From the NCBI GenBank assembly GCA_041393775.1, contig JAWKJM010000003.1, positions 187,185-251,184 of the forward strand: a stretch of 64,000 nt of DNA, given 5' to 3'. Source of the stretch: Candidatus Nanopelagicales bacterium. Lineage in GTDB: Bacteria > Actinomycetota > Actinomycetes > S36-B12 > UBA10799. The notes below the pieces were generated by a model. The model ran no database searches. It saw only the letters and a program-made list of their open reading frames with translations, and was not told where the DNA came from. Position 1 is the stretch's first letter, and every line of letters starts with the position of its first letter. Positions 1,518 to 53,112 of the stretch are shown here, one piece after another. Both the position numbers and the translations under genes were made by a program.

Positions 1518-1792
1518 CCGTCGGTGGTCGTGGCCGGCTGCGGCGTTCTGACGGGAAGAACATCGGGCGGAAATCGGTCGCGTCGGTGGTCCATGGCCGT
1601 GGCCGGCCGCCCTTTAGGCCGGGAAATGCCGGGCGGAAACCGCTCGGGTTAGAGAACGTGCACGAGGTTAGAGAAACCACACGTGCGTTCACTAACCTCG
1701 TGCACAATCTCTAACCTCGCGACCATTCTCTAACCTCGCGGCCAACTCCCACGACCGCCGAGCACACGGGCCGCCGTCGGACTACCAGTCCT
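1518..1792 (-). repeat. Mosaic palindromic intergenic repeat, copy 1 (inverted relative to the other copies)
   Basis: 28-nt arms at 1648-1675 and 1688-1715 (25/28 complementary), CACGTG-containing loop, extra CGAGGTTAGAGA iterons, and two ~60-nt CCGCCC...GGGCGG modules at 1518-1647. Confidence 0.85.
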
Positions 1793-23251: not shown

Positions 23252-23294
23252 GAGCCGCCTCCGAGAATCGAACTCGGGACCTACGCATTACGAG
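23252..23294. repeat. att direct repeat (tRNA-proximal copy)
   Basis: 43/43 identical to 14500..14542; covers the tRNA-Thr 3' end up to the anticodon loop. Confidence 0.95.
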
Positions 23295-23326
23295 TGCGTC
23301 GCTCTGGCCGACTGAGCTAAGGCGGC
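23253..23326 (-). tRNA. tRNA-Thr (anticodon CGT)
   Basis: Hand-folded 74-nt cloverleaf: acceptor GCCGCCT/AGGCGGC, anticodon stem ACGCA/TGCGT with loop CTCGTAA, T-arm CCGAG-TTCGATT-CTCGG. Confidence 0.9.
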
Positions 23327-26268: not shown

Positions 26269-26470
26269 AGTCCGAAAATGTCTGGTGTACTCGGCCTCGG
26301 CAGGAGTTGGCCGCGAGGTTAGAGATTGTGCACGAGGTTAGTGAATGCACGTGTGGCTTCTCTAACCTCGTGCACGTTCTCTAACCCGAGCCGATTCCGC
26401 CCGGCATTTCCCCGCCTGAACGCCGCGGCCCGCCACGGCGAACCGGGAACCCTAACGCGAACCGGGAACC
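26269..26470 (+). repeat. Mosaic palindromic intergenic repeat, copy 2
   Basis: AGTCCGAAAATG... tail, arms at 26318-26345 and 26358-26385, then CTAACCCGAGC/CTAACGCGAAC modules; fills the convergent gap up to the next stop codon. Confidence 0.85.
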
Positions 26471-28546
26471 CTAGGCCCCCGCCCGTTCAGCCCGCGCCGC
26501 CAGCGCCAGCTCCCGCACCCGCGCCAAGTCCTCGTCGGTATACACACCGTTGACACCGCTGATGGTCGCCAGCTTCATCCCGTGCTTCAGGCCGAGTTTG
26601 TAGATCTCCTTGACCTTCTCCCACTCGATGTTGCGCCCGATGGTGAAGGTCTCGTAGCGGCCCTCGAGGGCAAGCACGATGGTCTCAGCCAGGCAGGCGT
26701 AGGCGACACCGCGCGGCAGGCCGATGTCACCCATGTGCACGTCGCCGGGCAACTGGATCTCGCCGGACTCGACCACCAGGACGTCGGGACGTTTGGCCAC
26801 ATCCTCAGCCGACAGATCCAGCGGACGCGCGACGTCGGTGATCACACATCCGGGCTTCACCTGCATGATGTCGAGAACCCGCTTGCCAGCACCCGACGTG
26901 GCGGTGACGATGGCGTCCATCTCCGGCAGGGCCTCGTCGGGAGTGGCCGCGACGAACACCTTCGCCCGCGGGTTCTCCCGCTCAATGTCAGCCTTGAGGG
27001 CGAGCAGTTTCGCCGGTTCCGGTGAGACCAGCCACAACTCGTCAGTGGCCATGGCCAGCAACCGGGCGCACACCGATCCGATCGCCCCGGTGGCGCCCAC
27101 CACCATGCTCTTGCCCAACAGCCGGCCCTGCTCGTCGACCTCTGAGACCCCGAGCCGGCGGATGGCGTCGTGCAAGGCCCAGAGCGCACCCGACGCGCTG
27201 TAACTGTTGCCGGTCGTGATCGGCAACGGCGCGCGCTTCGCAACTGTCACGCCCGCGTCCCCGACCACCTTGGTGAACGCGCCGAGCCCCATGATCTGGG
27301 CGCCGAGCTTCTTGGCGATGTCGGCGGCGGCCAACAGCCGCGAATACGTGAACTCGGGGTCGTGGGCCATGAGTTGCTTCGGCGTTCCGCCGACCGTGAT
27401 CAACCAGCCCTCGGCCTCGTCGCCGGTCGGCGAAGTGACACCGGTGATGTGGCTGTACTTGAACGGCGGCGCATACGCGATGGCCTTCTCGACACCGTCC
27501 ATGACCACCTGCGGCGACACCTTCGCAATGGTGTTCAAGGGTTCTACGTTGCGCAGGTACTGCTGTGACAACGGGTGGATCACGAAGGCGAACCGACTCT
27601 TGCGCTTGTAGCCGCCGGGGTACATCGACCTCGGCTCCAGGCCCGCGGAGGTGATCATGTCCAGGAGGTCGTCGTCGGTCAGCGTCACCTCGTCCGCGCC
27701 GGTCACGGCCAGCATGAGGCCCTCCAGAACGGCGGCATTGACGGTGACCCCCTCGAAGGGCTGCGGGGTGTCATCGAGGACCAGATCGACCCCTCGGCGA
27801 TGCAGTTCTTCAAGCCGCTTCTCGGACACCGACGACGTGATAAGCGTCTTGCCCGCCAGTTCCTCGAGGTCGAACATCATCAACTCGTCGTAGGTGGCGA
27901 CCAGCACGTCGGCGTCCCGGACTGCCCTGCGAAGCATGGACTGGTTGAAACGGCGCCCGGGCGCGCTGACCGGGCCGGCGATGGGGCCTGGCACCCGGTC
28001 GAGGAACCACTTGCTCACCCCGGCGAACCGGTCGAGCGCGTTGAAGGAGTCGAGCATCGACGGCAGGCCCCACTGGAGGACAGCGTCGGCGAACTTGATG
28101 TTCTCGGTGAACTCCGCCAGCAGCCGGGCGGTGCGGCGGTGGTGCGAGCCGCCGAGCACAACGGTGCGCGCGTTGTTGAACAGGCCGGGCTTGTCGGCTG
28201 CCACCTTGCGGATCGTCCACTCCTGCAACACATCGCGCAGCCGGCCCCCGTTGGTGAAGGGTACCTCTCCGGTCGCAGCTTCCAGTCTGCGCAAAGCGCC
28301 CTTCTCGTCACCGGAGAGGATCCCTACTGTGCGCGCATCCAGGGCCCCGGTGATGGCGAAGACCGTCGTGCCCGGCAGCCACTGCTTAACCATCTCCTCC
28401 CCGCGGTCGACGTCCCCGTCCGCCCCGACTCTCACAATGCGGAAGTCGTGCTCCAGGAAGGTCACCGACGTGTCGTAGTTACGCTCCGACTCCGCCAGAC
28501 TCACGTCCACGACTACTGGCAGTTCCTTTGCCTTCTTACGCGCCAT
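26471..28546 (-). CDS. Two-domain oxidoreductase; the C-terminal ~340 aa are acyl-ACP reductase (AAR)-like
   Basis: GLGAFTKV, TTGNSYSA, VVGATGAIGSVCA and YACLAETIVLALEG...TIGRNIEWEKVKEI parallel cyanobacterial AAR motifs. Confidence 0.6.
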   Translation of the reverse strand: MARKKAKELPVVVDVSLAESERNYDTSVTFLEHDFRIVRVGADGDVDRGEEMVKQWLPGTTVFAITGALDARTVGILSGDEKGALRRLEAATGEVPFTNGGRLRDVLQEWTIRKVAADKPGLFNNARTVVLGGSHHRRTARLLAEFTENIKFADAVLQWGLPSMLDSFNALDRFAGVSKWFLDRVPGPIAGPVSAPGRRFNQSMLRRAVRDADVLVATYDELMMFDLEELAGKTLITSSVSEKRLEELHRRGVDLVLDDTPQPFEGVTVNAAVLEGLMLAVTGADEVTLTDDDLLDMITSAGLEPRSMYPGGYKRKSRFAFVIHPLSQQYLRNVEPLNTIAKVSPQVVMDGVEKAIAYAPPFKYSHITGVTSPTGDEAEGWLITVGGTPKQLMAHDPEFTYSRLLAAADIAKKLGAQIMGLGAFTKVVGDAGVTVAKRAPLPITTGNSYSASGALWALHDAIRRLGVSEVDEQGRLLGKSMVVGATGAIGSVCARLLAMATDELWLVSPEPAKLLALKADIERENPRAKVFVAATPDEALPEMDAIVTATSGAGKRVLDIMQVKPGCVITDVARPLDLSAEDVAKRPDVLVVESGEIQLPGDVHMGDIGLPRGVAYACLAETIVLALEGRYETFTIGRNIEWEKVKEIYKLGLKHGMKLATISGVNGVYTDEDLARVRELALAARAERAGA

Positions 28547-28561
28547 GTTCCCTCTTCCGAC

Positions 28562-29401
28562 CTAGTACAACGGATCTGCAAATGTGCCCGCGGCCCTGCG
28601 CAGGCCACCGGTGTAGGCCTGCACGTCGAGCACTGCCGGCTGCACCACGTCTACCACCGACCGGTTGAGGTCGGGGGCCGCGATGAGTTCGGCCGCGGCC
28701 GCCACCAGACCTTCATAGGCCTGCACGCCATCGCGCAGGCGCGCGGCCACTTCGACACTCGCGTGCTGGGCAGAGGTGGCGGCCTGGGTCCCCGGCATCT
28801 GCTGGGCCGTTCGGTACAACGTCCCGAGCCGTTCCACGAGGGACCGCAGCGCAGGGTCGACTTCGGTCAATGCCCGCCGCAACTGCTGCCCCGCTTCGGG
28901 ATGCATCTGGTCGACCAGCGGCAACAGGTCGTCCCACCGCTGGGCCGCACGCGACCAGCGGGCGACCTCGTCGGAACCCGGGGTTCCGGGTGGCAGGGGC
29001 TCGATCGGCAACGGCGGCAGTTCTGGCATGGCGGGAGGCTGGAGCGTCTGCCGCTTCTCCTTGGTCAGGAATGCGAACATCCCGGAGAAACCGGCCGCGG
29101 TGAACCAGAGCAGCGAGGGTTGCGGGGTCACGGCGCCGATGACACCCATCACCGAGGCGCCCGCAGCACCGGCGGTCCAGGCGATCTGACGGCTGCGCAT
29201 CCGCTGCAAGCGCCGCTCGTAACCTGCCACCCGGTTCTGGTGACCGGCCACAAGCGCCTGCCGCTGCGCCATGACGAGCTCCCGGTCCGTCGGCCGTTTC
29301 GGCCTTGTGGCGCGATAAGCCTGGTAGCGCTCAAGCCCAGCGGTGAAACCAGCTTCGACCACCTTCAGCCAATGGTCGTTCTGCTTGTTCCGCTTGGCCA
29401 T
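28562..29401 (-). CDS. Hypothetical membrane-anchored protein
   Basis: 279-aa ORF with two central TM helices, 16 nt upstream of the AAR-like gene. Confidence 0.6.
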   Translation of the reverse strand: MAKRNKQNDHWLKVVEAGFTAGLERYQAYRATRPKRPTDRELVMAQRQALVAGHQNRVAGYERRLQRMRSRQIAWTAGAAGASVMGVIGAVTPQPSLLWFTAAGFSGMFAFLTKEKRQTLQPPAMPELPPLPIEPLPPGTPGSDEVARWSRAAQRWDDLLPLVDQMHPEAGQQLRRALTEVDPALRSLVERLGTLYRTAQQMPGTQAATSAQHASVEVAARLRDGVQAYEGLVAAAAELIAAPDLNRSVVDVVQPAVLDVQAYTGGLRRAAGTFADPLY

Positions 29402-29452
29402 GCTCCTACGGTACGTGACACAGCGGTCGCAGGCGAAGTCGTTGCCTGAACC

Positions 29453-30430
29453 TCACCCAACCGCGGGCAGTTCGAACCATGCCAGGGTGGTGGTGTTCAG
29501 GCTGCCGAGGGCGACCTTGTCGCCTGCCACACGGACCCCAGTCACCATGAAGAAGTCGTCGTGCTCCCCGAAGAACTCGTGGACCATCGTGCCCTGCACG
29601 TCGTACGCCCGCAGCCACGTCATCGTGTCCGGTTTGGGGTGCAGCGCCTCGGGGAGCGCCCAGATCGCCTTGCGCAGCAGCGGGATCTTGGCAGGCAGGC
29701 CGTCCAATGCGGACTTGCGGGCACTGGCCATCGCCACCCAGAGCAGGCCGTCGTCGCCGTTGGAGATGTTGTCCGGGAACCCCGGCAGGTTGGTGATCCA
29801 TTGCTCTGTCCGGCCGGTGTCCAACCAGATCCGGGTGAGGCTGTAGTCGCCGGTCTGGGCGACGACGACGAACTCGTCGGTGAGCGCGACCCCGTTCGCG
29901 AACTGCAGCCCCTCCGCGAGCACATCAACGGTGCCGTCCGGGTTGCGGCGCAGGAGCCGACCGGTCCCGGAGTGCTCGAGCAGGTCCGCGGTCCAGTGCT
30001 CGAGTTCGAAGCGCTGGCTGGAGTCACTGAAGTAGATGGTGCCATCGGTCGCCACCGCCGCGTTGTTGCACAGCCGAAGACCGTGCTGCCCGACGGCCAC
30101 GAGCGTCTCCAGATCTCCAGTCGCGGGATCGAGCAGGAGTAACCCGCGCTCGGCGTCACAGATCAGGACCCGTCCGTCGGTGTACTGCTCGAGGCCGAGC
30201 GGCCGGCCCTTGGTGTCGGCGAGAACCTCGATCTGCCACCCGTCCAGGCTCACCTTCACGATCCGGCCGTCGTCGACACCGGTCAGGATTGCATCACCGA
30301 GGAACAGCGGGTCCTCGGGACCGTGACCGGGCACCGGCAGCACGTGCAGGGGCGGGAGGTTGGCCGGTGGCAAGGACTCCGCCGATGCGGGCGGCTCCCA
30401 TTTGACGGGATGGATCGACGGTTTGCTCAT
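29453..30430 (-). CDS. Strictosidine synthase-like / SMP-30 beta-propeller family protein
   Basis: DGTIYFSDSS and LQFANGVAL motifs; start at ATG 30430. Confidence 0.7.
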   Translation of the reverse strand: MSKPSIHPVKWEPPASAESLPPANLPPLHVLPVPGHGPEDPLFLGDAILTGVDDGRIVKVSLDGWQIEVLADTKGRPLGLEQYTDGRVLICDAERGLLLLDPATGDLETLVAVGQHGLRLCNNAAVATDGTIYFSDSSQRFELEHWTADLLEHSGTGRLLRRNPDGTVDVLAEGLQFANGVALTDEFVVVAQTGDYSLTRIWLDTGRTEQWITNLPGFPDNISNGDDGLLWVAMASARKSALDGLPAKIPLLRKAIWALPEALHPKPDTMTWLRAYDVQGTMVHEFFGEHDDFFMVTGVRVAGDKVALGSLNTTTLAWFELPAVG

Positions 30431-30509
30431 GGGCTCATTGTGCGGCGTCAGCCGCGGACGGTTGGCCACTTTCGGGCATCTCGCGGCGGGACTGATCCGC
30501 AGGTTTCGA

Positions 30510-31673
30510 CTAGGCCAAGCGCGGTGCCCGCAACTTGACCACCATGGCCTCCATCGCCAGTTGCGGGGCCACGTTCATCGCCAACGCCTGTCGGGCGTCG
30601 CGGATCGCCGTGATCCGCAGCAAGGTGTCCGAGGTCGCGCTCTCGTCGGCCATCCGCGCGAGGTCGGAACGCATCTCCTCGTTGACCAACTCCACCGGCG
30701 CTTCTTCTTGCAGCGCCAGGACGTCACGGAACCAGGCGAGCAGATCGACCAGGACCCGGTCGAGCTCGTCACGTACCGCGCGGGAGCGACGAGCCGCCTG
30801 CCGGTCCTCGAGGTCCTTGAGGGCGGCCTTGGTCACCCGTTTGATCCCCTTGCCCTCGGCTCCGGAGCCCAACGCGAGCATCATCTCCGCCCGCTCGCTC
30901 TCGTCGCGTTCGGACAACAGCGCCTCCGCATCGGCCTTGGCAGCCGCGACGATATTGCCGGCAGCGGACATACAGCTGGCCAGGTCGGACAGATCGCGCA
31001 CCATGACCAGCACGTCGTGGCGGCGGTTGCGCACCGACTCGATCGTGGCCAGCGCCCTGGCGCGGCCGATGTGACCCATGGACGCGCGCGCGGCGAAGGC
31101 CGCGGTTGCCGGATCCACCCCCTGCTGCTGCGTGAGGAACGCCGCCACCGCATCGGTGCCGGGAGTGCGCAGGCCGATCACCTGACAGCGGGAACGCACG
31201 GTGGGCAACAGATCCTCGACGCTCGGCGCACAGAGCAACCAGACGGTGCGGCTGGCGGGTTCCTCGATGCTCTTGAGCAGGACGTTGTTCGCGGATTCGG
31301 TCAGTCGGTCGGCATCCTCCATCACGATGACGTGCCAGCGGGCCCGGGTCGGCGCCATGTCGGCCCGGGCGACCAGCCGCCGGGCTTCCTCGGTCTTGTA
31401 TGACAGCCCTTCCGGGCGGACCACCTCCACGTCGGGGTGGCTACCGGACCTGACCGCCTGGCAGTCCTGGCAGACCCCGCAGCCTCCTTCGGGGCAGACC
31501 AGTGCGGCACCGAACGCGATGGCGGCATTGGATCGCCCTGAGCCCGGCGGGCCGATGAACAGCCAGGCGTGGGTCATGCTCGGCCCCACCGGTTCGTCGG
31601 CGGCGTCGACTGCCGCCTCCTGCAGCACCTCGACCACATGGTCCTGGCCGACCAGCGTGTCGAAGACCCTCAT
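30510..31673 (-). CDS. holB: DNA polymerase III subunit delta'
   Basis: HAWLFIGPPGSGRS Walker A, CGVCQDC zinc module, SRC motif (VRSRCQ); ATGA overlap with tmk. Confidence 0.85.
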   Translation of the reverse strand: MRVFDTLVGQDHVVEVLQEAAVDAADEPVGPSMTHAWLFIGPPGSGRSNAAIAFGAALVCPEGGCGVCQDCQAVRSGSHPDVEVVRPEGLSYKTEEARRLVARADMAPTRARWHVIVMEDADRLTESANNVLLKSIEEPASRTVWLLCAPSVEDLLPTVRSRCQVIGLRTPGTDAVAAFLTQQQGVDPATAAFAARASMGHIGRARALATIESVRNRRHDVLVMVRDLSDLASCMSAAGNIVAAAKADAEALLSERDESERAEMMLALGSGAEGKGIKRVTKAALKDLEDRQAARRSRAVRDELDRVLVDLLAWFRDVLALQEEAPVELVNEEMRSDLARMADESATSDTLLRITAIRDARQALAMNVAPQLAMEAMVVKLRAPRLA

Positions 31674-32275
31674 CGCCATTCTTCGGGCACCGCCGCCCAT
31701 ACCAGTTCGGAAACTTCCTCGACCGATCCCGAAGCGTCGATCACCGCGTACCGATGACTCGCTCTGCCCGCCAGATCCAGCAACCCCCTGCGCACCCGGG
31801 CCTGGAACAACTCGCCCTCGTTCTCCATGCGGTCCGCCTCGCCGTTGCGTTGTGTCGACGCCCCCACCGGGAGATCCAGCATGATCGTCAGGTCCGGCAC
31901 CAGACCATCGGTGGCCCACAGATTGACCTTCTCCACCTCGTCCACCCCGAGGCCGCGGGCAACCCCCTGGTAGGCCAGCGAAGAGTCCACGAACCGGTCG
32001 GAGATCACCACCGCGCCGCGTTCGAGCGCCGGGCGGATCGTACGTTCCACATGGTCGGCGCGCGCGGCGGCGAACAGCAGTGCCTCGCAACGACTGGCCA
32101 TGTCCACATCGTCGGCCAGCAACAGCACACGGATCGCCTCCGCCACCGGGGTGCCACCCGGCTCACGGGTCACCACGACTTCGTGCTTCTCAGTCATCCG
32201 CTGGGCCAGCACCTGCAACTGAGTCGTCTTGCCCGAGCGGTCCACGCCCTCGAACGCTACGAACAATCCCGTCAC
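31670..32275 (-). CDS. tmk: dTMP (thymidylate) kinase
   Basis: FVAFEGVDRSGKTTQ P-loop and DRFVDSSLAYQG motifs. Confidence 0.9.
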   Translation of the reverse strand: MTGLFVAFEGVDRSGKTTQLQVLAQRMTEKHEVVVTREPGGTPVAEAIRVLLLADDVDMASRCEALLFAAARADHVERTIRPALERGAVVISDRFVDSSLAYQGVARGLGVDEVEKVNLWATDGLVPDLTIMLDLPVGASTQRNGEADRMENEGELFQARVRRGLLDLAGRASHRYAVIDASGSVEEVSELVWAAVPEEWR

Positions 32276-32330
32276 GCGTTCAAGCCTCTCACGGCCGTTC
32301 AGGGGCGGCGGGTTGCCGTCGGCCCCCGGA

Positions 32331-32410
32331 CAGCGAGGTTAGAGGTTGTCCACGACGTTAGAGGAACCACGCGTGTCTTCTCTAACCTCGTGCACGTTCT
32401 CTAACCTCGT
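32331..32410 (+). repeat. Mosaic palindromic repeat, copy 3 (diverged subfamily)
   Basis: Arms at 32338-32365 and 32378-32405; right arm identical to the family consensus TTCTCTAACCTCGTGCACGTTCTCTAAC. Confidence 0.85.
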
Positions 32411-32485
32411 CGTCCGAGCGGTCACGCTGTCCACAGAATCGCATCGGACCGACCGGTCGACCCTCATCGCGGCAAGGCTGGGTGC

Positions 32486-33349
32486 ATGAACCGCATCAGC
32501 GAGTTGAGGGCCATGGGCCTCAATGCTGCTCAGATCCAGCGGATACGCCGTCAGGGCAACCAGGTCACTTGGGGGGTCTACGCCGAGCCCGGACTCGACC
32601 CGCAGGCCAGGTACCTGCTGAAGTGCCGGTCGGTCCTAGAACGGTTGCAGCCCTCCGCTGCTCTGGCCGGTCCGTCGGCGGCGGCGGTGTGGGAACTGCC
32701 GATCGTCGGAGAACCACCCGACGAGGTCTACGTACGCAACATTCCGCGAGGCGCCTACGCCCAGGACGTCCGGGTGCTATCCGATGCTCCCTCGCAAAGG
32801 GTCGGCGACCTCAATGTGACCACTCCCGTGTGGACGGCCATCGACTGCGCACGGATGCTGAACTCCCGCGACGGGCTCATCGTCGCCGACGCCGCACTTG
32901 CCGGGAGCCTGTTCACGACGGACGCCCTGGTCGCGGCAGCAGACGGCATCAGGGGTCACCCCGGCGCCTCTCGGGCTCGATGGATCGCTGCCCATGTCGA
33001 CCCGCTGTCCGAATCCCCCGGCGAGACATGGGCCCGCAGTCTTGTGAGCCAACTCGGGTACGACGTGAGCAGTCAGGCGTACGTGACCGATGGGCGCAGG
33101 GAAGCATGGCTGGACCTGCTCCTCGATGACGGACGCACCGCGATCGAGTTCGACGGCTTGGTCAAGTACAAGAAGCGCGGCCTGGCGAAGGTGATCCAGG
33201 AACACTTGAGGGACGGGGATCTGCAGGCGATCGGTTACACCCTGCTTCATGTCATCTGGAAGCAACTGTCCGACCCGGCCCAATTGGACCGCCGTCTGCG
33301 ATACGCCGGAGCGAGGCCGGCCCGCCCGCCGCGCCTGCTCACTTGGTGA
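32486..33349 (+). CDS. AbiEi-like N-terminal / DUF559-type endonuclease-like C-terminal protein
   Basis: N-terminal RISELRAMGLNAAQIQRIRRQG... and C-terminal TAIEFDGLVKYKK motifs. Confidence 0.6.
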   Translation: MNRISELRAMGLNAAQIQRIRRQGNQVTWGVYAEPGLDPQARYLLKCRSVLERLQPSAALAGPSAAAVWELPIVGEPPDEVYVRNIPRGAYAQDVRVLSDAPSQRVGDLNVTTPVWTAIDCARMLNSRDGLIVADAALAGSLFTTDALVAAADGIRGHPGASRARWIAAHVDPLSESPGETWARSLVSQLGYDVSSQAYVTDGRREAWLDLLLDDGRTAIEFDGLVKYKKRGLAKVIQEHLRDGDLQAIGYTLLHVIWKQLSDPAQLDRRLRYAGARPARPPRLLTW

Positions 33350-33362
33350 GGTGGAGCCAGTT

Positions 33363-33441
33363 CACGAGGTTAGAGGTTGGCCACGGTGTTAGAGGAACCA
33401 CGCGTGCCTTCTCTAACCTCGTGCACGTTCTCTAACCTCGC
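33363..33441 (+). repeat. Mosaic palindromic repeat, copy 4 (same subfamily as copy 3)
   Basis: Arms at 33369-33396 and 33409-33436. Confidence 0.85.
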
Positions 33442-33451
33442 GGGGGCGGCG

Positions 33452-36076
33452 CTACTTGCGCGAGGCGGCCTTCTTGCGCGGTGCCGCCTTCTTCTTCGGC
33501 GCGGGACCCTTGGCACGGCGTTCGCTGATCAGATCACTGGCCCGCTCCAGCGTGATCGTCAACGGGTCGTCGGCGACGCGCAGCGAGGCGTTGATCTCAC
33601 CGTCGGTGACGTACGGACCGAAGCGGCCATCCTTGAGCTCGATCTTCTTACCGCTGATCGGGTCGGTGCCGATCTCCTTGCCCGGTTGCGGCTCCTGGCG
33701 CCCCCGGCCGCGCTTGGGCTGGGCGAACAGCGCGAGCGCCTCATCGACGGTGCACGTGAAGATGCTGGCCTCGTCGGGCAGTGACCGGGAGTCCTTGCCG
33801 TGGGTCAGGTAGGGGCCGTACCGCCCGTTCTGCGCCATGATCGGCTCCCCGTCCTCCGGGTGCTTGCCGACCTCGCGCGGCAACGACAGCAGTCGCAACG
33901 CGTCCTCGAGGGAAACGGTCGCGATCTCCATGTCCTTGAACAGGCTGGCGGTGCGCGGTTTGACGGTCTTGCGCGGCTTCTTGGCGCCCTCCGGCAACTC
34001 CGGGAGAACCTCGGTGACGTACGGCCCGAACCGGCCCGTCTTGGTGACGATCTCGTGGCCGGTATCGGGGTCGATCCCGAGTACCCGCTCCTCCTTGGGC
34101 GCGTTCAGCAACTCCAACGCGACCTCGGCGGTCAGTTCGTCGGGAGGTAGGTCGGCCGGCACATTGGCCCGCCGCTCGCCCTGTTCGAGGTACGGGCCGA
34201 ACTTGCCGACCCGCAGCACCATCTCCTCGCCGATCGGGAACGACGAGTTCTCGCGCGGGTCGATCTCGGGCAGGCGTTCGATCATCGGGTGAAGACCGCG
34301 GAAGGCCACGCCCTGGGCGTCGTCACCGCCGTAGTAGAACCGGCCCAGCACCACCGACCGCGACGCGTCACCGCGCGCCACCACGTCCAGGATCTCCTCG
34401 AGACGCGCGGTGAAGTCGTAGTCCACGAGCCCTGCGAAATGGTCTTCCAGCAGGCGCACGACGGCGAACGCGAGCCATGCGGGGACCAGCGCCGACCCCC
34501 GCTTGAACACGTACCCCCGGTCAAGCAGGGTGCCGATGATCGCCGACCACGTGGACGGACGGCCGATCCCGCGATCCTCCAGCGCCTTCAGCAGCGACGC
34601 CTCCGTGTATCGGGCGGGCGGTTTGGTGGTGTGGTCCTCCGCGTTGAGCGCGCGGATGGTCACCGTGTCGCCCGTGGCCAAGTGCGGCAGCCGGCGTTGC
34701 TGGCCGAAGTCGTCGTCGTCGCGGCTCTCCTCATAGGCGGCGAGGAAACCCTGGAAGGTGATGACGGTACCGCTCGCGGAGAAGATCGTGTCGACGCCGT
34801 CGGAGGCGGTCGCGGCGAGTTTCAGCGTGGTGGTCGCGATCTTCGCGTCGGCCATCTGGGAGGCCACGGTGCGCTTCCACACCAGGTCGTACAAGGCCAT
34901 CTCGTCCGGGTTCAGCTCACCGGCCACCTGCCCCGGGGTGCGGAAGGACTCGCCGGCCGGGCGGATCGCCTCGTGCGCCTCCTGCGCGTTCTTGACCTTG
35001 CGCTCGTACAGCCGCGGCTGGGCGGCAACATGGTCGTCGCCGTACAGCGCACGAGCCTGATTGCGGGCGGCGTTGACCGCGGTTTCCGACAGGGTGGTGG
35101 AGTCGGTACGCATATATGTGATGTATCCGCGCTCGTACAGACCCTGCGCCACCCGCATCGTCCGCTGTCCGCCCCAGCGCAGCTTGCGCGACGCCTCCTG
35201 CTGCAGGGTCGACGTCATGAACGGCGGTGACGGCCTGCGTGTGCCGGGCTTCTCCTCCACCGAATCGACGGTCATAGCGGCGTCGGCCAGCCCCACCACG
35301 ATCGCTTCTGCCGCAGCCAGATCGAGGTGCCGGACGTCGGTCTTCTTCAATTGCCCGCGGTCGTCGAACGAGTCCCCGCGGGCGATCCGCACCCCGTCGA
35401 CATGGGTCAGGGTCGCGGTGAAATTGCCCGGGTCCAGCAGCGCCTCGATATCCGCATAGCCCGCCCGCACGAACGCCATCCGCTCCCGCTCCCGGTCGAC
35501 CACCAGGCGCAGGGCCACGGACTGCACGCGTCCGGCCGACAACCGCGGCATGACCTTCTTCCAGAGCACCGGCGACACCTCGTAGCCGTACAAGCGGTCC
35601 AGGATGCGGCGGGTCTCTTGGGCGTCGACGAGGTCCTGGTCAAGGTCGCGGGTCTCGCCCAGTGCCCGCTGGATCGCCTCTTTGGTGATCTCGTGAAACA
35701 CCATCCGCTTGACGGGAACCTTCGGCTTGAGTACTTCCAGAAGATGCCAGGCGATGGCTTCCCCCTCCCGGTCCTCATCGGTGGCCAGCAGCAGTTCGTC
35801 GGCGGTCGCGAGTTTGTCCTTCAACTCCTTGACCCGCGCCCGCTTGTCCGCGTTGACCACATAGATAGGAGCGAAGTTGTTCTCGACGTCCACTCCGAGC
35901 CGTGACCAGGACTCGGACTTGTACTTCGCGGGGATGTCGGCGGCCCGGTCCGGCAGGTCCCGGATGTGCCCAACACTGGCCGTCACCTCGAAACCGTCGC
36001 CGAGGTAGCCCTGGATCGTCTTGGCCTTGGCGGGCGACTCGACGATGACAAGGCGGCGGGGGGTGGTTCTGGGCAT
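33452..36076 (-). CDS. topA: DNA topoisomerase I
   Basis: LVIVESPAKAKTI Toprim start, canonical topA domains, Lys-rich C-terminal tail; ATG 36076 after GGAAGGA. Confidence 0.95.
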   Translation of the reverse strand: MPRTTPRRLVIVESPAKAKTIQGYLGDGFEVTASVGHIRDLPDRAADIPAKYKSESWSRLGVDVENNFAPIYVVNADKRARVKELKDKLATADELLLATDEDREGEAIAWHLLEVLKPKVPVKRMVFHEITKEAIQRALGETRDLDQDLVDAQETRRILDRLYGYEVSPVLWKKVMPRLSAGRVQSVALRLVVDRERERMAFVRAGYADIEALLDPGNFTATLTHVDGVRIARGDSFDDRGQLKKTDVRHLDLAAAEAIVVGLADAAMTVDSVEEKPGTRRPSPPFMTSTLQQEASRKLRWGGQRTMRVAQGLYERGYITYMRTDSTTLSETAVNAARNQARALYGDDHVAAQPRLYERKVKNAQEAHEAIRPAGESFRTPGQVAGELNPDEMALYDLVWKRTVASQMADAKIATTTLKLAATASDGVDTIFSASGTVITFQGFLAAYEESRDDDDFGQQRRLPHLATGDTVTIRALNAEDHTTKPPARYTEASLLKALEDRGIGRPSTWSAIIGTLLDRGYVFKRGSALVPAWLAFAVVRLLEDHFAGLVDYDFTARLEEILDVVARGDASRSVVLGRFYYGGDDAQGVAFRGLHPMIERLPEIDPRENSSFPIGEEMVLRVGKFGPYLEQGERRANVPADLPPDELTAEVALELLNAPKEERVLGIDPDTGHEIVTKTGRFGPYVTEVLPELPEGAKKPRKTVKPRTASLFKDMEIATVSLEDALRLLSLPREVGKHPEDGEPIMAQNGRYGPYLTHGKDSRSLPDEASIFTCTVDEALALFAQPKRGRGRQEPQPGKEIGTDPISGKKIELKDGRFGPYVTDGEINASLRVADDPLTITLERASDLISERRAKGPAPKKKAAPRKKAASRK

Positions 36077-36266
36077 TTCGTCCTTCCGGAGGGGTTTCGT
36101 CCCCATGATGCGGGTACGAATGGGCACCATATGACGGTGGGGGTCGTTTGCGCTAGTCCTGTTGACGCGCAAGGTGCGCCGCGACGCCCGCTGTCGCGAA
36201 GTCACCGAAACCCGGCGGCGTCTCCGGGTAAGTCCGCAACAACCGGCGCCGTACTCCTGCCGGCGT

Positions 36267-37730
36267 TCACCGATTCGGCGTGAACACCTCGCTGAACACT
36301 GCCTTCAGCAACACCTCCACCAGCGGCGCCGGGGAGGCCTCCATGAGCGCGTTCATCCCGGCCATCTCGTCGGGCAGCGTCACCGGCCCACCCTGGCCCT
36401 TGAACCCGGCGATCTGCATCAGCCCGTCCAGCGTGTCGGCGTCGAGCGCGTCGACATCGATGGTGGCGGCGGCCGCGGCCAGGTTCGGGTCCGGGTCGGC
36501 CCGGCCCTTCCCGGTGGCTGCCTCCGTGGCTGCGCGCAGGACTTCCAGTAGTTCGTCGGCCCGGTCGGCGATCCCGGCCGCGACGGTGAGGTGGATGTTG
36601 GTCGGGGCGCCCTGCCGCGCGGGCTGCACCTGCAAGGACCAGCCCAGCCTGTGCGCCTCGTCGGACACGATCCGGACATCGGGGCCCTCGGGTGCGCCCG
36701 TGTCGGCCACGGCGACCAGGGCCGCCTCGGGTTGCGCCACCAGTCGCAGGCCGGGGATCTGCCCCACCCCTTCGGCGATGCGCAAGGCGCCGGCCCGCGA
36801 GCGCAACGACAAGTCGCGCAGACCGTCCTTGCCAAGCAGGTGCAGGACCGCCCACGCCGCCGCCGCCGGAGCCACTGAGCGACTCGACAACAGCGTGTTG
36901 TTGATCAAGGGGTAGCCGGGCCACGCCGCGTCCGCGAAGTAGTGGAGCGCCCGCAGATCGGAGTTGGCACTGAGCAGGATCGAAACACCTTTGGGTGCGT
37001 AGCCGTACTTGTGCAGATCCATCGATGCCGAAGTGATCCCGGGGATGCTCATGTCGACCGGGGCCCGGTCCTCGTTCTCGAGGATGAACGGCAACGCCCA
37101 CCCGCCGATGCACAGATCCAGATGGCACAGAATGTCGCGTTCGGCAGCGGCCGCAGCCACCTCGTAGGCCGGATCGATGACACCGTGGGCATAGTTGGGT
37201 GCCGACACGACCGCCAGCGCCGTCCGGTCCGACATCGCATCGATCATCGCCCGGGCGTCGGCTTTGAACCCTGCGTCAATGGGGATGTCGACCACGTCCA
37301 CGTCGAAGAGCCAGGCACCCTTGCGGAACGCGGAATGTGCCGTCACCGGCAGCAGCATCTGGGGCCGGCCCTCGCCGCCGCGTTTGCGGAATCGTTCACG
37401 CGCGCCCAGCACCGCCAGCATGCACGACTCGGTCCCGCCACTGGTCACGGTCCCGACCGCGTCCGGGCCGCCGCCGTGCAGGTTCAGGGCCGCGCCTACG
37501 AGGTCGTTCTCGATCGCGGAGATACTCGGGAAGGCGGTCGGGTCCAGCCCGTTGCGGCCCCAGGCCGTCGCCGACGCGGCGGTGGCCACTTCCCGTAGCT
37601 GCGGGTTGCCGGACTCAAAGTGGTAGCTCGTCGCCTTGGTGAAATCGAGGTCCAACGCGCGCAGCTCGCCCAACGCCTCCAGAATCTCGTCAGCCGGCAG
37701 GCCGTGTTCAGGTAGCGGTGGCAGTGTCAT
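36267..37730 (-). CDS. PLP-dependent group II decarboxylase / sphingosine-1-phosphate-lyase-like enzyme
   Basis: SASMDLHKYGYAPKG PLP-lysine motif. Confidence 0.75.
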   Translation of the reverse strand: MTLPPLPEHGLPADEILEALGELRALDLDFTKATSYHFESGNPQLREVATAASATAWGRNGLDPTAFPSISAIENDLVGAALNLHGGGPDAVGTVTSGGTESCMLAVLGARERFRKRGGEGRPQMLLPVTAHSAFRKGAWLFDVDVVDIPIDAGFKADARAMIDAMSDRTALAVVSAPNYAHGVIDPAYEVAAAAAERDILCHLDLCIGGWALPFILENEDRAPVDMSIPGITSASMDLHKYGYAPKGVSILLSANSDLRALHYFADAAWPGYPLINNTLLSSRSVAPAAAAWAVLHLLGKDGLRDLSLRSRAGALRIAEGVGQIPGLRLVAQPEAALVAVADTGAPEGPDVRIVSDEAHRLGWSLQVQPARQGAPTNIHLTVAAGIADRADELLEVLRAATEAATGKGRADPDPNLAAAAATIDVDALDADTLDGLMQIAGFKGQGGPVTLPDEMAGMNALMEASPAPLVEVLLKAVFSEVFTPNR

Positions 37731-43680: not shown

Positions 43681-43760
43681 GTGTACTCAGTAGGAGCAGG
43701 AGTTGGCCACGAGGTTAGGAACACACGCGTGGTTTCTCTAACCTCGTGCACGTTCTCTAG
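43681..43760 (+). repeat. Mosaic repeat, copy 5a (truncated; ends TTCTCTAG)
   Basis: GTGTACTC...GGCCACGAGGTTAGG-loop-TTCTCTAACCTCGTGCACGTTCTCTAG, abutting copy 5b. Confidence 0.8.
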
Positions 43761-43940
43761 TCCGAAAATGGCTGGTGTACTCGGTCGCCGCAGAAGTGGG
43801 CCGCGAGGTTAGAGAATGGTCGCGAGGTTAGAGATCGTGCACGAGGTTAGTGAACGCACGTGTGGCTTCTCTAACCTCGTGCACGTTCTCTAACCCGAGC
43901 GGTTTCCGCCCGGCATTTCCCCGCCTGAACGCCGCGGCCG
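43759..43940 (+). repeat. Mosaic palindromic repeat, copy 5b (full length)
   Basis: AGTCCGAAAATGG tail, three CGAGGTTAGAGA iterons, arms at 43827-43854 and 43867-43894, then a CTAACCCGAGCGGTTTCCGCCC module. Confidence 0.9.
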
Positions 43941-44100
43941 CCACGCGGTGCTGCGACTTCAGCAGCGGGTAGACCACGTCGTCGGCCACCCACGCCATCC
44001 CCCACCTTGTCCCGGTCATTCGGCACCGGAGCCGACCCCGCGTGCACCCGGGAAGACGCTGCGACCCGCTCCACCAGCCTGAACCCAAGCAAACGTCGGA

Positions 44101-48812: not shown

Positions 48813-49089
48813 CGCTGGTGGCGGCGGCGGACAACATCTGTGGACGAGCGGGCGCGACCGCCGGACACGGAGAAGGCCCCCGCAGGGGGGGATGCGGGGG
48901 CCTTCGGGCCGATGATTGGGGGGAAAGATCGGCCGCTCGCCCGTTTCGGGCATCTCCACTATCTCGCCATCCCAAATCCGGCGCAAGAGTTTAAGGCAAG
49001 GATTGACTAAGTATTGACAAATCATCTGGTTGACCGATGTCCATGCGCCGAAAGATCTAGGGACTCATGGCCTGTGCGACCATGTCAGG

Positions 49090-52810: not shown

Positions 52811-52850
52811 GGGGTTGGCCGCGAGGTTAGAGAATGCGCACGTTCTCTAG
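52811..52850 (+). repeat. Mosaic repeat, copy 6a (internally deleted; ends TTCTCTAG)
   Basis: GGTTGGCCGCGAGGTTAGAGAATGCGCACGTTCTCTAG, abutting copy 6b. Confidence 0.75.
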
Positions 52851-53112
52851 TCCGAAAATGGCTCGTGTACTCGGTCGCCGCAGAAGTGGGCCGCGAGGTT
52901 AGAGAATGGTCGCGAGGTTAGAGATTGTGCACCGGGTTAGTGAATGCACACGTGGCTTCTCTAACCTCGTGCACGTTCTCTAACGCGAGCGATCTCCGCC
53001 CGCCGTCTTCTCGCCTGAACGGGCGGCCAGGCCGCGGCCATGGACCACTAACGCGAGCGCTTTCCGCCCGGCCTTTCCCGCCCGAATGGGCGGCCGGACC
53101 ACGGCCGCTGAT
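52849..53112 (+). repeat. Mosaic palindromic repeat, copy 6b, plus two CTAACGCGAGC...CCGCCC...GGGCGG modules
   Basis: Arms at 52917-52944 and 52957-52984; modules at about 52981-53047 and 53048-53112. Confidence 0.9.

What the first reader, a model, noticed from the sequence alone, without database searches (positions are those of the whole stretch)
32331..33441. AbiEi/DUF559-type gene bracketed by two same-subfamily repeat copies, wedged between tmk and topA
- **Bracketing copies:** copies 3 and 4 are direct repeats 1,031 bp apart. They resemble each other more than any other copy: both have GGTTAGAGGTTG..CCACG..GTTAGAGGAACCACGCGTG, with about 5 mismatches over ~76 nt.
- **Cargo:** they flank exactly one plus-strand gene, with an AbiEi-like N-terminus and a DUF559/Vsr-like endonuclease C-terminus, in an otherwise minus-strand housekeeping run.
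- **Synteny:** in Streptomyces, as I recall, topA, tmk and holB are contiguous, so this looks like a repeat-bounded single-gene cassette insertion.
- **Interpretation:** it may show how this repeat family (or recombination between its copies) moves cargo genes.
Basis: partly seen in the sequence, partly recalled or inferred. Interest (0 to 1): 0.55.

Follow-up and report, generated by a model that had tools for sequence, protein, structure and literature searches.

The report
Palindrome-flanked nuclease gene unit
A small DNA-binding nuclease gene wedged between tmk and topA is bracketed by two copies of a 76-base palindrome, and the same package (palindrome, DnaA box, gene, palindrome) recurs across Actinobacteria with unrelated palindrome sequences, so it looks like an undescribed self-contained genetic unit and not a random cassette.

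Summary
Two 76-nt imperfect palindromes (32334-32409 and 33365-33440) match at 72/76 positions. They bracket one plus-strand gene (32486-33349, 287 aa) between tmk and topA. The protein has an AbiEi-like DNA-binding part and a Vsr/DUF559-like nuclease part.

The window is not Streptomyces. It matches a Candidatus Nanopelagicales MAG.

Close relatives show all three states at this site: repeat-gene-repeat, a solo repeat, and a 59-67 bp empty spacer.

The gene is not arbitrary cargo:
- In 59 of 73 homologue loci (23 of 27 independent genomic contexts; Arthrobacter, Rothia, Isoptericola, Cellulosimicrobium, Actinomyces, MAGs) the gene is flanked by a pair of ~75-nt repeats. Shifted controls gave 3 of 407.
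- Repeat sequences differ between genera, but the two copies in one genome evolve in concert.
- Where sub-units are visible, they have a 19-20-nt period.
- The downstream copy abuts the stop codon.
- A DnaA-box-like 9-mer (consensus TTGTCCACA/TTATCCACA) lies upstream of most copies.

In the window's lineage the palindrome has also spread to other intergenic sites, which resembles REP/RAYT. I found no paper describing this. The mechanism (protein binds and cuts its own flanks) is inferred, not shown.

The parts
32334..32409 (.). Upstream (U) 76-nt imperfect palindrome: two forward 19-nt units (GGTTAGAG core), centre CACGCGTG, two inverted units. It lies 58 nt from the tmk start, in the divergent tmk/gene spacer.
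   Evidence: folds as a long hairpin, z -4.5
32427..32435 (+). DnaA-box-like 9-mer cTGTCCACA (8/9 match to the actinobacterial consensus TTGTCCACA). It lies 17 nt after the U palindrome; its TCCACAG core begins 57 nt before the ATG.
   Evidence: consensus from PMC4285127 Table 1
32486..33349 (+). Gene for a 287-aa protein: an AbiEi-like winged-helix DNA-binding N-terminal part plus a Vsr/DUF559/MTES_1575-type PD-(D/E)xK nuclease C-terminal part. Invariant in the family: S177-P-G-E180, D210, E221-F-D223-G.
33346..33364 (.). Degenerate third repeat unit (GGTGAGGTGGAGCCAGTTCAC region) that overlaps the stop codon TGA at 33347-33349.
   Evidence: read from the sequence; in L004 and L001 the stop codon likewise lies inside the repeated sequence
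33365..33440 (.). Downstream (D) 76-nt palindrome, 72/76 identical to U. It ends 11 nt before the topA stop codon, in the convergent spacer.
31670..32275 (-). tmk (dTMP kinase), left flank of the insertion. Together with the holB ORF (30510-32090) it forms the minus-strand run.
33452..36205 (-). topA (DNA topoisomerase I), right flank of the insertion. In relatives with an empty site, topA and tmk are 59-67 bp apart on one strand.
1644..1738 (.). Dispersed copy of the same repeat family (main subfamily, three inverted units).
26314..26389 (.). Dispersed copy (main subfamily).
43712..43898 (.). Two dispersed copies: a partial one at 43712-43760 and a full one at 43804-43898.
52822..52984 (.). 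Two dispersed copies: a short remnant at 52822-52850 and a full one at 52894-52984.

Best explanation
Region 32334-33440 is one copy of a widespread, mostly vertically inherited actinobacterial unit.

**Layout.** [~75-nt repeat, usually a palindrome built of 19-20-bp units] - [DnaA box] - [gene for an AbiEi-like DNA-binding plus Vsr-like nuclease protein] - [second copy of the repeat abutting the stop codon].

**Proposed working.**
- The protein's AbiEi-like domain binds the arrays of ~19-bp units on both sides of its own gene. Its structural relative Rv2827c binds four 23-bp repeats in the same way.
- The nuclease domain acts at or near these arrays.
- The two flanks are kept alike because both must be recognised by the same fast-evolving protein.
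- Host DnaA probably controls expression through the conserved box.
- The whole unit can be gained or lost as a block. In the window's lineage the palindrome has additionally multiplied to other intergenic sites, as REP sequences do around a RAYT gene.

**Shown:** the anatomy, the family-wide association, concerted evolution of the flanks, lineage-specific cores, the 19-20-nt period, the DnaA-box motif, and presence/absence at tmk-topA.

**Inferred:** binding, cleavage, DnaA control, and any causal role of the protein in spreading the palindromes.
For: 1. **Flanking pair.** It is present in 59/73 homologue loci against 3/407 shifted controls. It is present in 14/16 syntenic groups and 9/11 singleton contexts.
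2. **Geometry.** Median repeat length is 75 nt. D starts a median of 2 nt after the stop codon. U ends a median of 157 nt before the start codon.
3. **Sequence turnover with concerted evolution.** Repeat sequences are unrelated between genera, but U and D within a genome stay alike. Example: similarity 0.90 and 0.86 within two genomes, but 0.43 between those genomes at 72% protein identity.
4. **Genome-specific cores in the near family.** GGTTAGAG (window), GGTTGGAG (L001/L002) and GGTGAG(A/C)G (L004, at a different locus) share the centre CACGCGTG. Dispersed copies in each genome carry that genome's core.
5. **A paralogue has its own palindromes.** P0044 (46% identical) comes from the same set of samples and has its own, different palindrome pair.
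6. **Sub-unit period.** It is 19-20 nt in 36 of the 40 elements that show a clear sub-repeat; shuffled control 1/118.
7. **Protein.** It has an AbiEi-like fold (1ZEL) plus a Vsr-like nuclease fold (3R3P, 3HRL) with invariant acidic residues. AbiEi/Rv2827c bind arrays of 23-bp inverted repeats (PMC7319586).
8. **DnaA-box-like 9-mer on the coding strand upstream.** TT[AG]TCCACA in 29/81 loci against 0/504 controls; T-N-TCCACA in 55/81 against 2/504. The consensus was checked in PMC4285127.
9. **Block indel among close relatives**.
10. **U cannot be a terminator here.** It sits between divergent genes and, judging by the position of the DnaA-box-like motif, upstream of the gene's probable promoter region, so its role is likely at the DNA level.
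Against: - No biochemical evidence exists that the protein binds or cuts the repeats.
- In most genera no extra copy of the repeat lies within 20 kb, so genome-wide spreading is not a general property of the family.
- In the window the dispersed copies are 93-98% alike but only 84-88% like the two gene-flanking copies. This gene may therefore not be their current source.
- Orientation of the pair is mixed: 20 clearly direct, 15 clearly inverted, 24 ambiguous. Some pairs are not self-palindromic.
- Some homologues lack a detectable upstream copy (L006, L007, L093) or both copies (L018 group, L060 group).
- No target-site duplication was seen at the L002/L085 junction.
- The family was not found on plasmids or in viral contigs, with only one weak partial match among phage records. 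Loci are syntenic within genera, so recent mobility is not demonstrated.
- The conserved upstream motif could be the protein's own operator and not a DnaA site.
Confidence: 0.5

Rival explanations
1. Host-domesticated, tightly insulated nuclease gene. The palindromes are only cis-regulatory: an upstream operator or insulator and a downstream bidirectional terminator or mRNA stabiliser for a potentially toxic, DnaA-regulated nuclease. The genome-wide copies in the window's lineage are an unrelated MITE/REP-like spread of a sequence that happened to be there.
For: - D abuts the stop codon (median 2 nt) and lies between convergent genes in the window.
- The hairpins are very stable.
- Loci are syntenic within genera, and the family was not found on plasmids or in viral contigs, with only one weak partial match among phage records.
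- AbiEi-type proteins autoregulate through inverted repeats.
- Most genomes show no dispersed copies nearby.
Against: - U lies upstream of the gene's probable promoter region and, in the window, between divergent genes, where no terminator is needed.
- A terminator and an operator have no reason to share one sequence and evolve in concert.
- No T-tract terminator signature was found.
- The unit is a clean block indel between near-identical relatives.
- Dispersed copies keep the genome-specific core of the flanking copies in three genomes.
Confidence: 0.25
2. The repeat family is the mobile agent, by transposition or by recombination between copies, and the AbiEi/DUF559 gene is passive cargo captured between two copies.
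For: - The repeats are dispersed in this genome.
- Solo-repeat and empty states exist at the same site in relatives.
- Contig L094 switches locus inside the repeat.
Against: - The 'cargo' is the same protein family in 59/73 loci, with unrelated repeats, mostly without other copies within 20 kb.
- The stop codon is embedded in the repeat.
- None of the other repeat copies in the window brackets a homologue of this gene, and the window holds no second homologue. Whether those copies bracket other genes was not checked.
- The L094 join may be a short-read assembly chimera.
Confidence: 0.05
3. Remnant or cryptic replicon-like or integrative module. The 19-20-bp direct units act as iterons, the DnaA box and the winged-helix protein act as an initiator-like pair, and the ~1.1-kb unit can exist as a circle that integrates by recombination with a genomic palindrome copy. 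This gives direct repeats on integration and leaves a solo repeat on excision.
For: - The units have an iteron-like 19-20-nt period.
- A DnaA box lies next to the inner end of U in about half of the loci.
- Direct-repeat flanks and solo-repeat sites exist.
- The duplication in L001 includes the stop codon.
Against: - There are no homologues on 72,556 plasmids, none in viral contigs and one weak partial match among phage records.
- The C-terminal Vsr-like nuclease is not a known initiator domain.
- Empty sites with no repeat at all exist.
- Many pairs are inverted.
Confidence: 0.07
4. Chance. A common intergenic REP-like element happens to occupy both spacers around an unrelated gene.
For: The repeat occurs at about six intergenic loci in 64 kb.
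Against: - The two flanking copies form their own subfamily.
- The same arrangement occurs at another locus in L004 and in 23 of 27 independent contexts, against 0.7% of controls.
Confidence: 0.02

Closest known systems
REP/REPIN sequences with their RAYT gene (REPtron)
   Same: - A chromosomal gene, single copy in this window and syntenic within genera, is flanked by copies of a short palindromic repeat.
- The repeat type is lineage-specific and tracks the gene.
- In the window's clade the repeat is dispersed at many intergenic sites.

REPIN-RAYT systems are described as vertically inherited, single-copy-transposase systems (abstracts listed).
   Different: - The protein is not an HUH/Y1 (IS200/IS605-like) transposase. 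It is an AbiEi-like DNA binder fused to a Vsr-like PD-(D/E)xK nuclease.
- The repeats are ~75 nt and built of 19-20-nt units.
- In most genera no copy beyond the two flanking ones lies within 20 kb.
- Divergent paralogues with different palindromes coexist in what appears to be one genome.
- A DnaA box is part of the unit.
AbiEi antitoxins of type IV AbiE toxin-antitoxin systems (S. agalactiae AbiEi, M. tuberculosis Rv2827c)
   Same: - Best structural match of the model is 1ZEL, Rv2827c, and the N-terminus gives a weak AbiEi profile hit.
- AbiEi and Rv2827c bind arrays of two or four 23-bp inverted repeats. This is comparable to four ~19-bp units per palindrome here.
   Different: - No AbiEii (DUF1814 nucleotidyltransferase) partner gene. 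The neighbours are tmk and topA, and other housekeeping genes elsewhere.
- The C-terminal domain is a nuclease fold, not the antitoxicity domain.
- The repeats lie on both sides of the gene, not only in the promoter.
Vsr-fold nucleases: DUF559 (PF04480), REase_MTES_1575 (PF18741), homing endonuclease I-Bth0305I, R2 retrotransposon endonuclease
   Same: - The C-terminal ~100 residues match 3R3P and 3HRL (TM 0.67-0.70). R2 endonuclease domains also appear in the list.
- 23/33 family members hit PF18741 and 3 hit PF04480.
- The acidic motif D...ExD is invariant.
   Different: - It is neither a stand-alone Vsr repair enzyme nor an intron- or intein-borne homing enzyme.
- It is fused to an AbiEi-like domain and tied to flanking repeats and a DnaA box.
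Insertion sequences / MITEs with terminal inverted repeats
   Same: - A ~1.1-1.3-kb unit holds one ORF between two cognate terminal repeats that evolve in concert.
- Some pairs are true inverted, non-palindromic repeats (L015, L016, L046, L076).
- The unit is a block indel between close relatives.
- Solo copies are dispersed in some lineages.
   Different: - No known transposase fold.
- No target-site duplication was seen.
- No multiple identical copies.
- Loci are syntenic within genera.
- Not found on plasmids or in viral contigs, with only one weak partial match among phage records.
Iteron-type replication origins (iterons + DnaA box + winged-helix initiator)
   Same: Directly repeated 19-20-bp units, an adjacent DnaA box and a gene for a winged-helix protein. 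The comparison itself rests on my own knowledge of iteron plasmids.
   Different: Chromosomal, syntenic and never found on plasmids. The protein carries a nuclease domain, and the units are arranged as a palindrome.

Membership tests
REPtron (RAYT + REP/REPIN) | The gene encodes an HUH/Y1 tyrosine transposase related to IS200/IS605 TnpA | tested here: not met
   No Pfam or NCBIfam hit of that kind was found. The fold matches AbiEi and Vsr-like nucleases.
REPtron (RAYT + REP/REPIN) | The gene is flanked by copies of the palindromic repeat | tested here: met
   Window copies match at 72/76. 59/73 homologue loci have the pair against 3/407 controls.
REPtron (RAYT + REP/REPIN) | The same repeat is dispersed in many extragenic copies in the genome | tested here: inconclusive
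   Met in the window (about six loci in 64 kb) and in L001, L004 and L084. Most other loci show no extra copy within 20 kb. Whole genomes could not be scanned.
REPtron (RAYT + REP/REPIN) | Single-copy, vertically inherited gene | tested here: inconclusive
   Loci are syntenic within genera, and the window holds no second copy. However, divergent paralogues exist (P0044; two loci each in two genomes). The unit is also present or absent among close relatives.
AbiE type IV toxin-antitoxin system | AbiEi-type antitoxin fold (N-terminal winged helix plus second domain) | tested here: met
   Foldseek top hit is 1ZEL (Rv2827c), E 7.3e-4 over 223 columns. PADLOC AbiEi E 9e-4. Homologues carry PF13338/PF09407.
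AbiE type IV toxin-antitoxin system | Bicistronic operon with an AbiEii (DUF1814) nucleotidyltransferase toxin | tested here: not met
   Neighbours are tmk and topA in the window. No DUF1814 gene is listed in the called genes of L001, L002, L004 or L093.
Vsr / DUF559 / REase_MTES_1575 nucleases | Profile match to PF04480 or PF18741 | tested here: inconclusive
   The window protein scores only E 0.18 to PF18741. 23 of 33 close homologues match PF18741 (best 2.4e-7) and 3 match PF04480.
Vsr / DUF559 / REase_MTES_1575 nucleases | Vsr-type restriction-endonuclease-like fold with conserved acidic active-site residues | tested here: met
   3R3P TM 0.70 and 3HRL TM 0.67. E180, D210, E221 and D223 are invariant in 33 sequences. 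Catalysis itself is not testable here.
Insertion sequence / transposon | Terminal repeats plus a recognised transposase, target-site duplication, and several near-identical copies | tested here: not met
   Terminal repeats are present. However, there is no transposase family hit, no duplication at the L002/L085 junction and no second copy in the window. There are no plasmid or viral-contig hits and one weak partial match among phage records.
Integron gene cassette | ORF with an attC palindrome within an array next to intI/attI | tested here: not met
   No integrase is among the scanned neighbouring ORFs of the window (26471-37730) or the called genes of L001 and L002. The site lies between tmk and topA.
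Homing endonuclease gene (Vsr-like EDxHD class) | Sits inside its own disrupted target (intron, intein or free-standing), and the empty allele carries the cleavage site | not testable with these tools
   Fold resemblance to I-Bth0305I only. Empty alleles exist, but cleavage cannot be tested. Each flank is a complete palindrome, not a half-site.
DnaA-regulated gene / DnaA box | 9-mer matching TT(A/G)TCCACA that is bound by DnaA | tested here: inconclusive
   The motif is present and strongly enriched: 29/81 against 0/504 strict, 55/81 against 2/504 relaxed. The window copy matches 8/9. The consensus was confirmed in PMC4285127. Binding was not tested.

The most novel reading that the evidence does not exclude
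A new class of repeat-gene partnership. A winged-helix plus Vsr-like PD-(D/E)xK nuclease is the enzyme that maintains, and in some lineages multiplies, its own cognate ~75-nt palindromes. It is not an HUH transposase. This would be a second, independently evolved REP/RAYT-like system, widespread in Actinomycetota, and coupled to the replication initiator through a built-in DnaA box.
Probability: 0.25. Interest if true: 0.85.

Novelty: new variant of a known kind. Interest (0 to 1): 0.72.

Why it matters
**An uncharacterised family gets a testable anatomy.** The protein family is large: 6,573 clusters at 50% identity with E <= 1e-10. It is annotated only as hypothetical, 'AbiEi-domain' or 'DUF559/very-short-patch-repair endonuclease'. 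This work gives it a concrete layout: two cognate repeats, a 19-20-bp unit period, a DnaA box, and a stop codon embedded in the repeat.

**If the protein acts on its flanks, three things follow.**
- It would be a non-HUH counterpart of RAYT/REP systems.
- It would explain the origin of at least one REP-like intergenic repeat family in uncultured freshwater and soil actinobacteria.
- It would supply a set of naturally diversified protein-DNA recognition pairs.

**The DnaA box suggests a link between such units and the replication cycle.**

**Practical consequences.**
- The repeats break short-read assemblies at this locus.
- The insertion splits what is a contiguous same-strand topA-tmk-holB run in relatives.

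Tried and rejected
- **Rfam.** No family matches the repeats or the region at gathering threshold or at E <= 1 on 32200-33520.
- **Promoter and terminator scan of the region.** Nothing found.
- **Defence and family libraries.** PADLOC gave only weak AbiEi N-terminal hits. NCBIfam gave nothing for the protein. PDB by sequence gave only 3HRL at E 0.8.
- **Mobile-element carriage.** No homologue on plasmids, one weak partial hit in phages, none in IMG/VR viral contigs.
- **Gene remnants at solo-repeat sites** (L087/L088, L091). None found.
- **Target-site duplication at the L002/L085 junction.** None seen.
- **Recent transposition.** I looked for non-syntenic pairs with high protein identity. Only Arthrobacter/Pseudarthrobacter pairs at 69-80% turned up, which is not convincing.
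- **Metagenome pattern scan for the window-type repeat.** It returned two contigs with solo copies and no adjacent gene.
- **Literature.** Searches for DUF559/AbiEi/MTES_1575/REP in Actinobacteria found no description of this association.
- **Rejected readings.** Streptomyces origin; chance co-occurrence; AbiE toxin-antitoxin; integron cassette; ordinary IS.
Full report
**1. The observation**

- The repeat finder returns two direct 76-nt copies at 32334-32409 and 33365-33440, spaced 1031 nt apart and 95% identical. That is 72/76.
- Each copy is itself an imperfect palindrome. It has two 19-nt units with a GGTTAGAG core, the centre CACGCGTG, then two inverted units. As single strands both fold far better than shuffles.
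- The core octamer occurs 22 times in the window against 0.37 expected. These hits mark further copies at about 1644-1738, 26314-26389, 43712-43898 and 52822-52984.
- The two copies around the gene form a subfamily of their own. They match at 72/76 to each other but only 61-64 of 72-73 to the rest. The other full-length copies are 93-98% alike.

Between the two copies lies one ORF, 32486-33349 (+), 287 aa. The flanking genes are all on the minus strand: the holB ORF (30510-32090), tmk (31670-32275) and topA (33452-36205).

**2. The protein**

On its own it has no significant Pfam or NCBIfam hit. The weak hits are REase_MTES_1575 (E 0.18) and PADLOC AbiEi (E 9e-4). The family context settles the question.
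- Homologues carry PF13338/PF09407 (AbiEi) and PF04480/PF18741 (DUF559, MTES_1575 Vsr-type REase).
- 23 of 33 close relatives hit PF18741.
- The alignment has invariant S177-P-G-E180, D210 and E221-F-D223-G.
- An AlphaFold model (pLDDT 90.2) matches Rv2827c, the M. tuberculosis AbiEi antitoxin (1ZEL, E 7.3e-4).
- In its C-terminal part the model matches the Vsr-like homing endonuclease I-Bth0305I (3R3P, TM 0.70), the DUF559 protein 3HRL (TM 0.67) and R2 endonuclease domains.

**3. The source organism**

The source is not Streptomyces. G+C is 68%. The tmk protein is 100% identical to one that NCBI names as from a Candidatus Nanopelagicales MAG, on a 1.245-Mb contig.

**4. The tmk-topA site in relatives**

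Two relatives carry orthologues of the gene at exactly this site.
- L001/L005 carries an orthologue 77% identical, and L002 one 66% identical. Both are flanked by a repeat pair of the same build but with a GGTTGGAG core.
- The neighbouring housekeeping proteins are far more conserved (tmk ~86-87%, TopA ~89-92%).

Other relatives with the same synteny lack the gene.
- L085/L086 have a 59-bp topA-tmk spacer, and L089/L090 a 67-bp spacer, with no repeat.
- L087/L088 have a solo GGTTGGAG-type repeat.
- L091 has a solo array with another core.
- No gene remnant is left at the solo sites.

L085 is very close to L002: TopA is 98.4% identical and tmk DNA 92.6%. The difference between them is one 1218-bp block, L002:9731-10948, without an obvious target duplication.

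The unit is therefore a block indel among close relatives.

**5. The gene and its repeats are one unit**

A 57%-identical homologue at a different locus (L004, next to ispG and an acetyltransferase) is again bracketed by two palindromes of the same build. Its core is GGTGAG(A/C)G and its centre is the same CACGCGTG. Here the stop codon lies inside the first unit.

I then fetched 80 loci encoding relatives from one genome per species. For each locus I aligned the 450 nt upstream with the 400 nt downstream.
- 59 of 73 testable loci have a repeat pair (local score >= 30).
- The same geometry shifted by 2.5-6 kb gives 3 of 407.
- Counting independent genomic contexts, the pair is present in 14 of 16 syntenic groups and 9 of 11 singletons.
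- The taxa include Arthrobacter, Pseudarthrobacter, Rothia, Isoptericola, Oerskovia, Cellulosimicrobium, Cellulomonas, Actinomyces/Schaalia and many MAGs.

Properties of the repeats:
- Median length is 75 nt.
- The downstream copy begins a median of 2 nt after the stop codon and often overlaps it.
- The upstream copy ends a median of 157 nt before the start codon.
- The sequences are unrelated between genera, but most are long hairpins.
- Where internal direct sub-units are visible, their period is 19-20 nt in 36 of 40 elements (shuffled control 1/118).
- Orientation of the pair is mixed: 20 clearly direct, 15 clearly inverted, 24 undecidable because the element is a near-perfect palindrome. 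A few pairs are plain inverted terminal repeats, or, in Actinomyces, long direct repeats.
- The two copies in one genome evolve in concert. For example L038 (0.90) and L079 (0.86) are alike within each genome but only 0.43 alike between the genomes, at 72% protein identity.
- P0044, a paralogue 46% identical from the same set of samples as the window's genome, has its own quite different palindrome pair.

**6. Dispersal and mobility**

- Extra copies of the flanking repeat within the 20-kb loci occur only in some lineages: the window clade, L004, L008, L012, L013, L084 and a few others. Most genomes show only the two private copies nearby.
- In the window, L001 and L004, the dispersed copies carry the genome's own core.
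- The loci are syntenic within genera.
- No homologue occurs on 72,556 plasmids. There is one weak hit among phages and none in viral contigs.
- The family is large: 6,573 clusters at 50% identity with E <= 1e-10.

The picture is of a mostly vertically inherited chromosomal unit that is occasionally gained or lost as a block. In a few lineages its palindrome has multiplied.

**7. A second conserved feature: a DnaA box**

Upstream of the gene, always on the coding strand, is a 9-mer that matches the DnaA box.
- Strict TT[AG]TCCACA occurs in 29 of 81 loci against 0 of 504 control windows.
- T-N-TCCACA occurs in 55/81 against 2/504, and TTNTNCACA in 44/81 against 0/504.
- High-G+C loci use TTGTCCACA, Rothia uses TTATCCACA and Arthrobacter uses TTTTCCACA. 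The published high-affinity boxes are TTGTCCACA for M. tuberculosis and S. coelicolor, and TTATCCACA for E. coli and B. subtilis (PMC4285127).
- In the near family the conserved TCCACA(G/A) core of the box begins 57-58 nt before the start codon. In the window the 9-mer is cTGTCCACA at 32427-32435.
- Several loci have an inverted partner CTGTGGA 13-18 nt upstream.
- In 46 of 59 repeat-flanked loci the box lies between the upstream repeat and the start codon. In half of these it is within about 20 nt of the repeat's inner end.

This motif is conserved among homologues only 27-30% identical, while the palindromes are not. A host-factor site is therefore the economical reading. Binding by DnaA has not been tested.

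**8. How it most likely works**

The closest structural relative, Rv2827c, binds four 23-bp inverted repeats in its own promoter, and S. agalactiae AbiEi binds two (PMC7319586). By homology I infer the following.
- The AbiEi-like part of this protein binds the four ~19-bp units of each palindrome.
- The conserved Vsr-like nuclease acts there.
- The need for one fast-evolving protein to recognise both flanks keeps the flanks alike.

The upstream copy lies upstream of the gene's probable promoter region and, in the window, between divergent genes. It therefore cannot be explained as a terminator, and a DNA-level role is likely.

The resemblance in logic to RAYT genes with their REP/REPIN sequences is close (abstracts): flanking repeats, lineage-specific repeat types, vertical inheritance, and dispersal in some lineages. 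But the enzyme is of a different kind, so this is not a member of that family.

All steps beyond the anatomy and the comparative statistics are inference.

**9. Points against, and open points**

- The window's dispersed copies are a different subfamily from the gene-flanking pair, so this gene may not be their source.
- Some homologues have only a downstream copy (L006, L007), only an upstream copy (L093), or none.
- No target duplication or second identical copy was seen.
- The empty site in L085, and the corresponding left flank in L002, both contain GGTTGTTGACGA. This is 11/12 identical to the spacer of the L002 repeat unit. It may be a target mimic, a scar or chance.
- A short-read contig (L094) is 99.9% identical to window 31375-32408 and then switches, inside the repeat, to another locus. 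This is either an assembly chimera or real recombination between copies.

**10. Verdict**

It is wrong in casting the gene as cargo of the repeats.
- What is there is one copy of a widespread unit that, as far as I could find, has not been described: repeat, DnaA box, AbiEi-like/Vsr-like nuclease gene, repeat.

Noticed in passing
window 32427-32435; upstream of the gene in L001, L004-L084, L092, L093: A DnaA-box-like 9-mer (consensus TT(G/A)TCCACA) lies on the coding strand upstream of this gene family: 29/81 loci strict against 0/504 controls. In the near family its TCCACA(G/A) core begins 57-58 nt before the start codon, and it often sits next to the inner end of the upstream palindrome.
   Followed up: yes
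window 1600-1650, 26270-26313 and 26390-26440, 43760-43803 and 43899-43950, 52850-52893 and 52985-53020: The dispersed copies of the main subfamily share extra conserved flanks (GTCCGAAAATGGCTGGTGTACTCGG... on one side, ...CCGCCCGGCATTTCCCCGCCTGAAC on the other). They seem to be parts of a larger composite repeat, and the two gene-flanking copies lack these flanks.
   Followed up: no
L094:2780-3010 (Logan contig SRR28338160_172710) against window 31375-32408: The contig is 99.9% identical to the window up to the inside of the upstream repeat. It then continues into a FAD-oxidase/TetR locus instead of the nuclease gene. Contigs L095 and L096 end inside the repeat. This is either an assembly chimera at a repeat or recombination between copies.
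   Followed up: partly
L085:4951-4962 (reverse strand), L002:9717-9728 and 9779-9790: The empty tmk-topA site and the left flank of the occupied site carry GGTTGTTGACGA. This is 11/12 identical to the inter-core spacer GGTTGTCGACGA of the repeat unit. The pattern is rare elsewhere in these loci.
   Followed up: partly
L092:375-449 and 1401-1475; L093:~9875-9955: Paralogue P0044 (46% identical, from the same sample set as the window's genome) has its own palindrome pair with core GTGCAGTTGGTTGACG. Its orthologue P0042 keeps the upstream copy but only a ~20-nt remnant of the downstream one.
   Followed up: partly
L087/L088 topA-tmk spacer (L088:4617-5000): Besides the solo GGTTGGAG-type repeat, the spacer holds three copies of another short palindrome (CGCCCACTTGTGGGC).
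   Followed up: no
L036, L043, L051, L052 (Actinomyces/Schaalia): Here the gene is flanked by long direct, non-palindromic repeats of about 95-240 nt instead of ~75-nt palindromes. One control window in L051 and one in L052 also scored high, so these repeats recur nearby.
   Followed up: partly
L001:10978-13595: topA is called as two ORFs (257 and 568 aa) in this long-read MAG. This is probably a frameshift error or a pseudogene.
   Followed up: no
window 48868-48939 (-) and 23252-23326 (-): Rfam finds a 6C RNA just above its gathering score, and a tRNA-Thr (CGT) gene.
   Followed up: no
window 32276-33451 against L085:4942-5000: In relatives with an empty site, topA, tmk and holB lie on one strand with a 59-67-bp gap. 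In the window the 1.18-kb unit, with an opposite-strand gene and two strong hairpins, separates topA from tmk-holB. tmk-holB must therefore have its own promoter, or one supplied by the unit.
   Followed up: no
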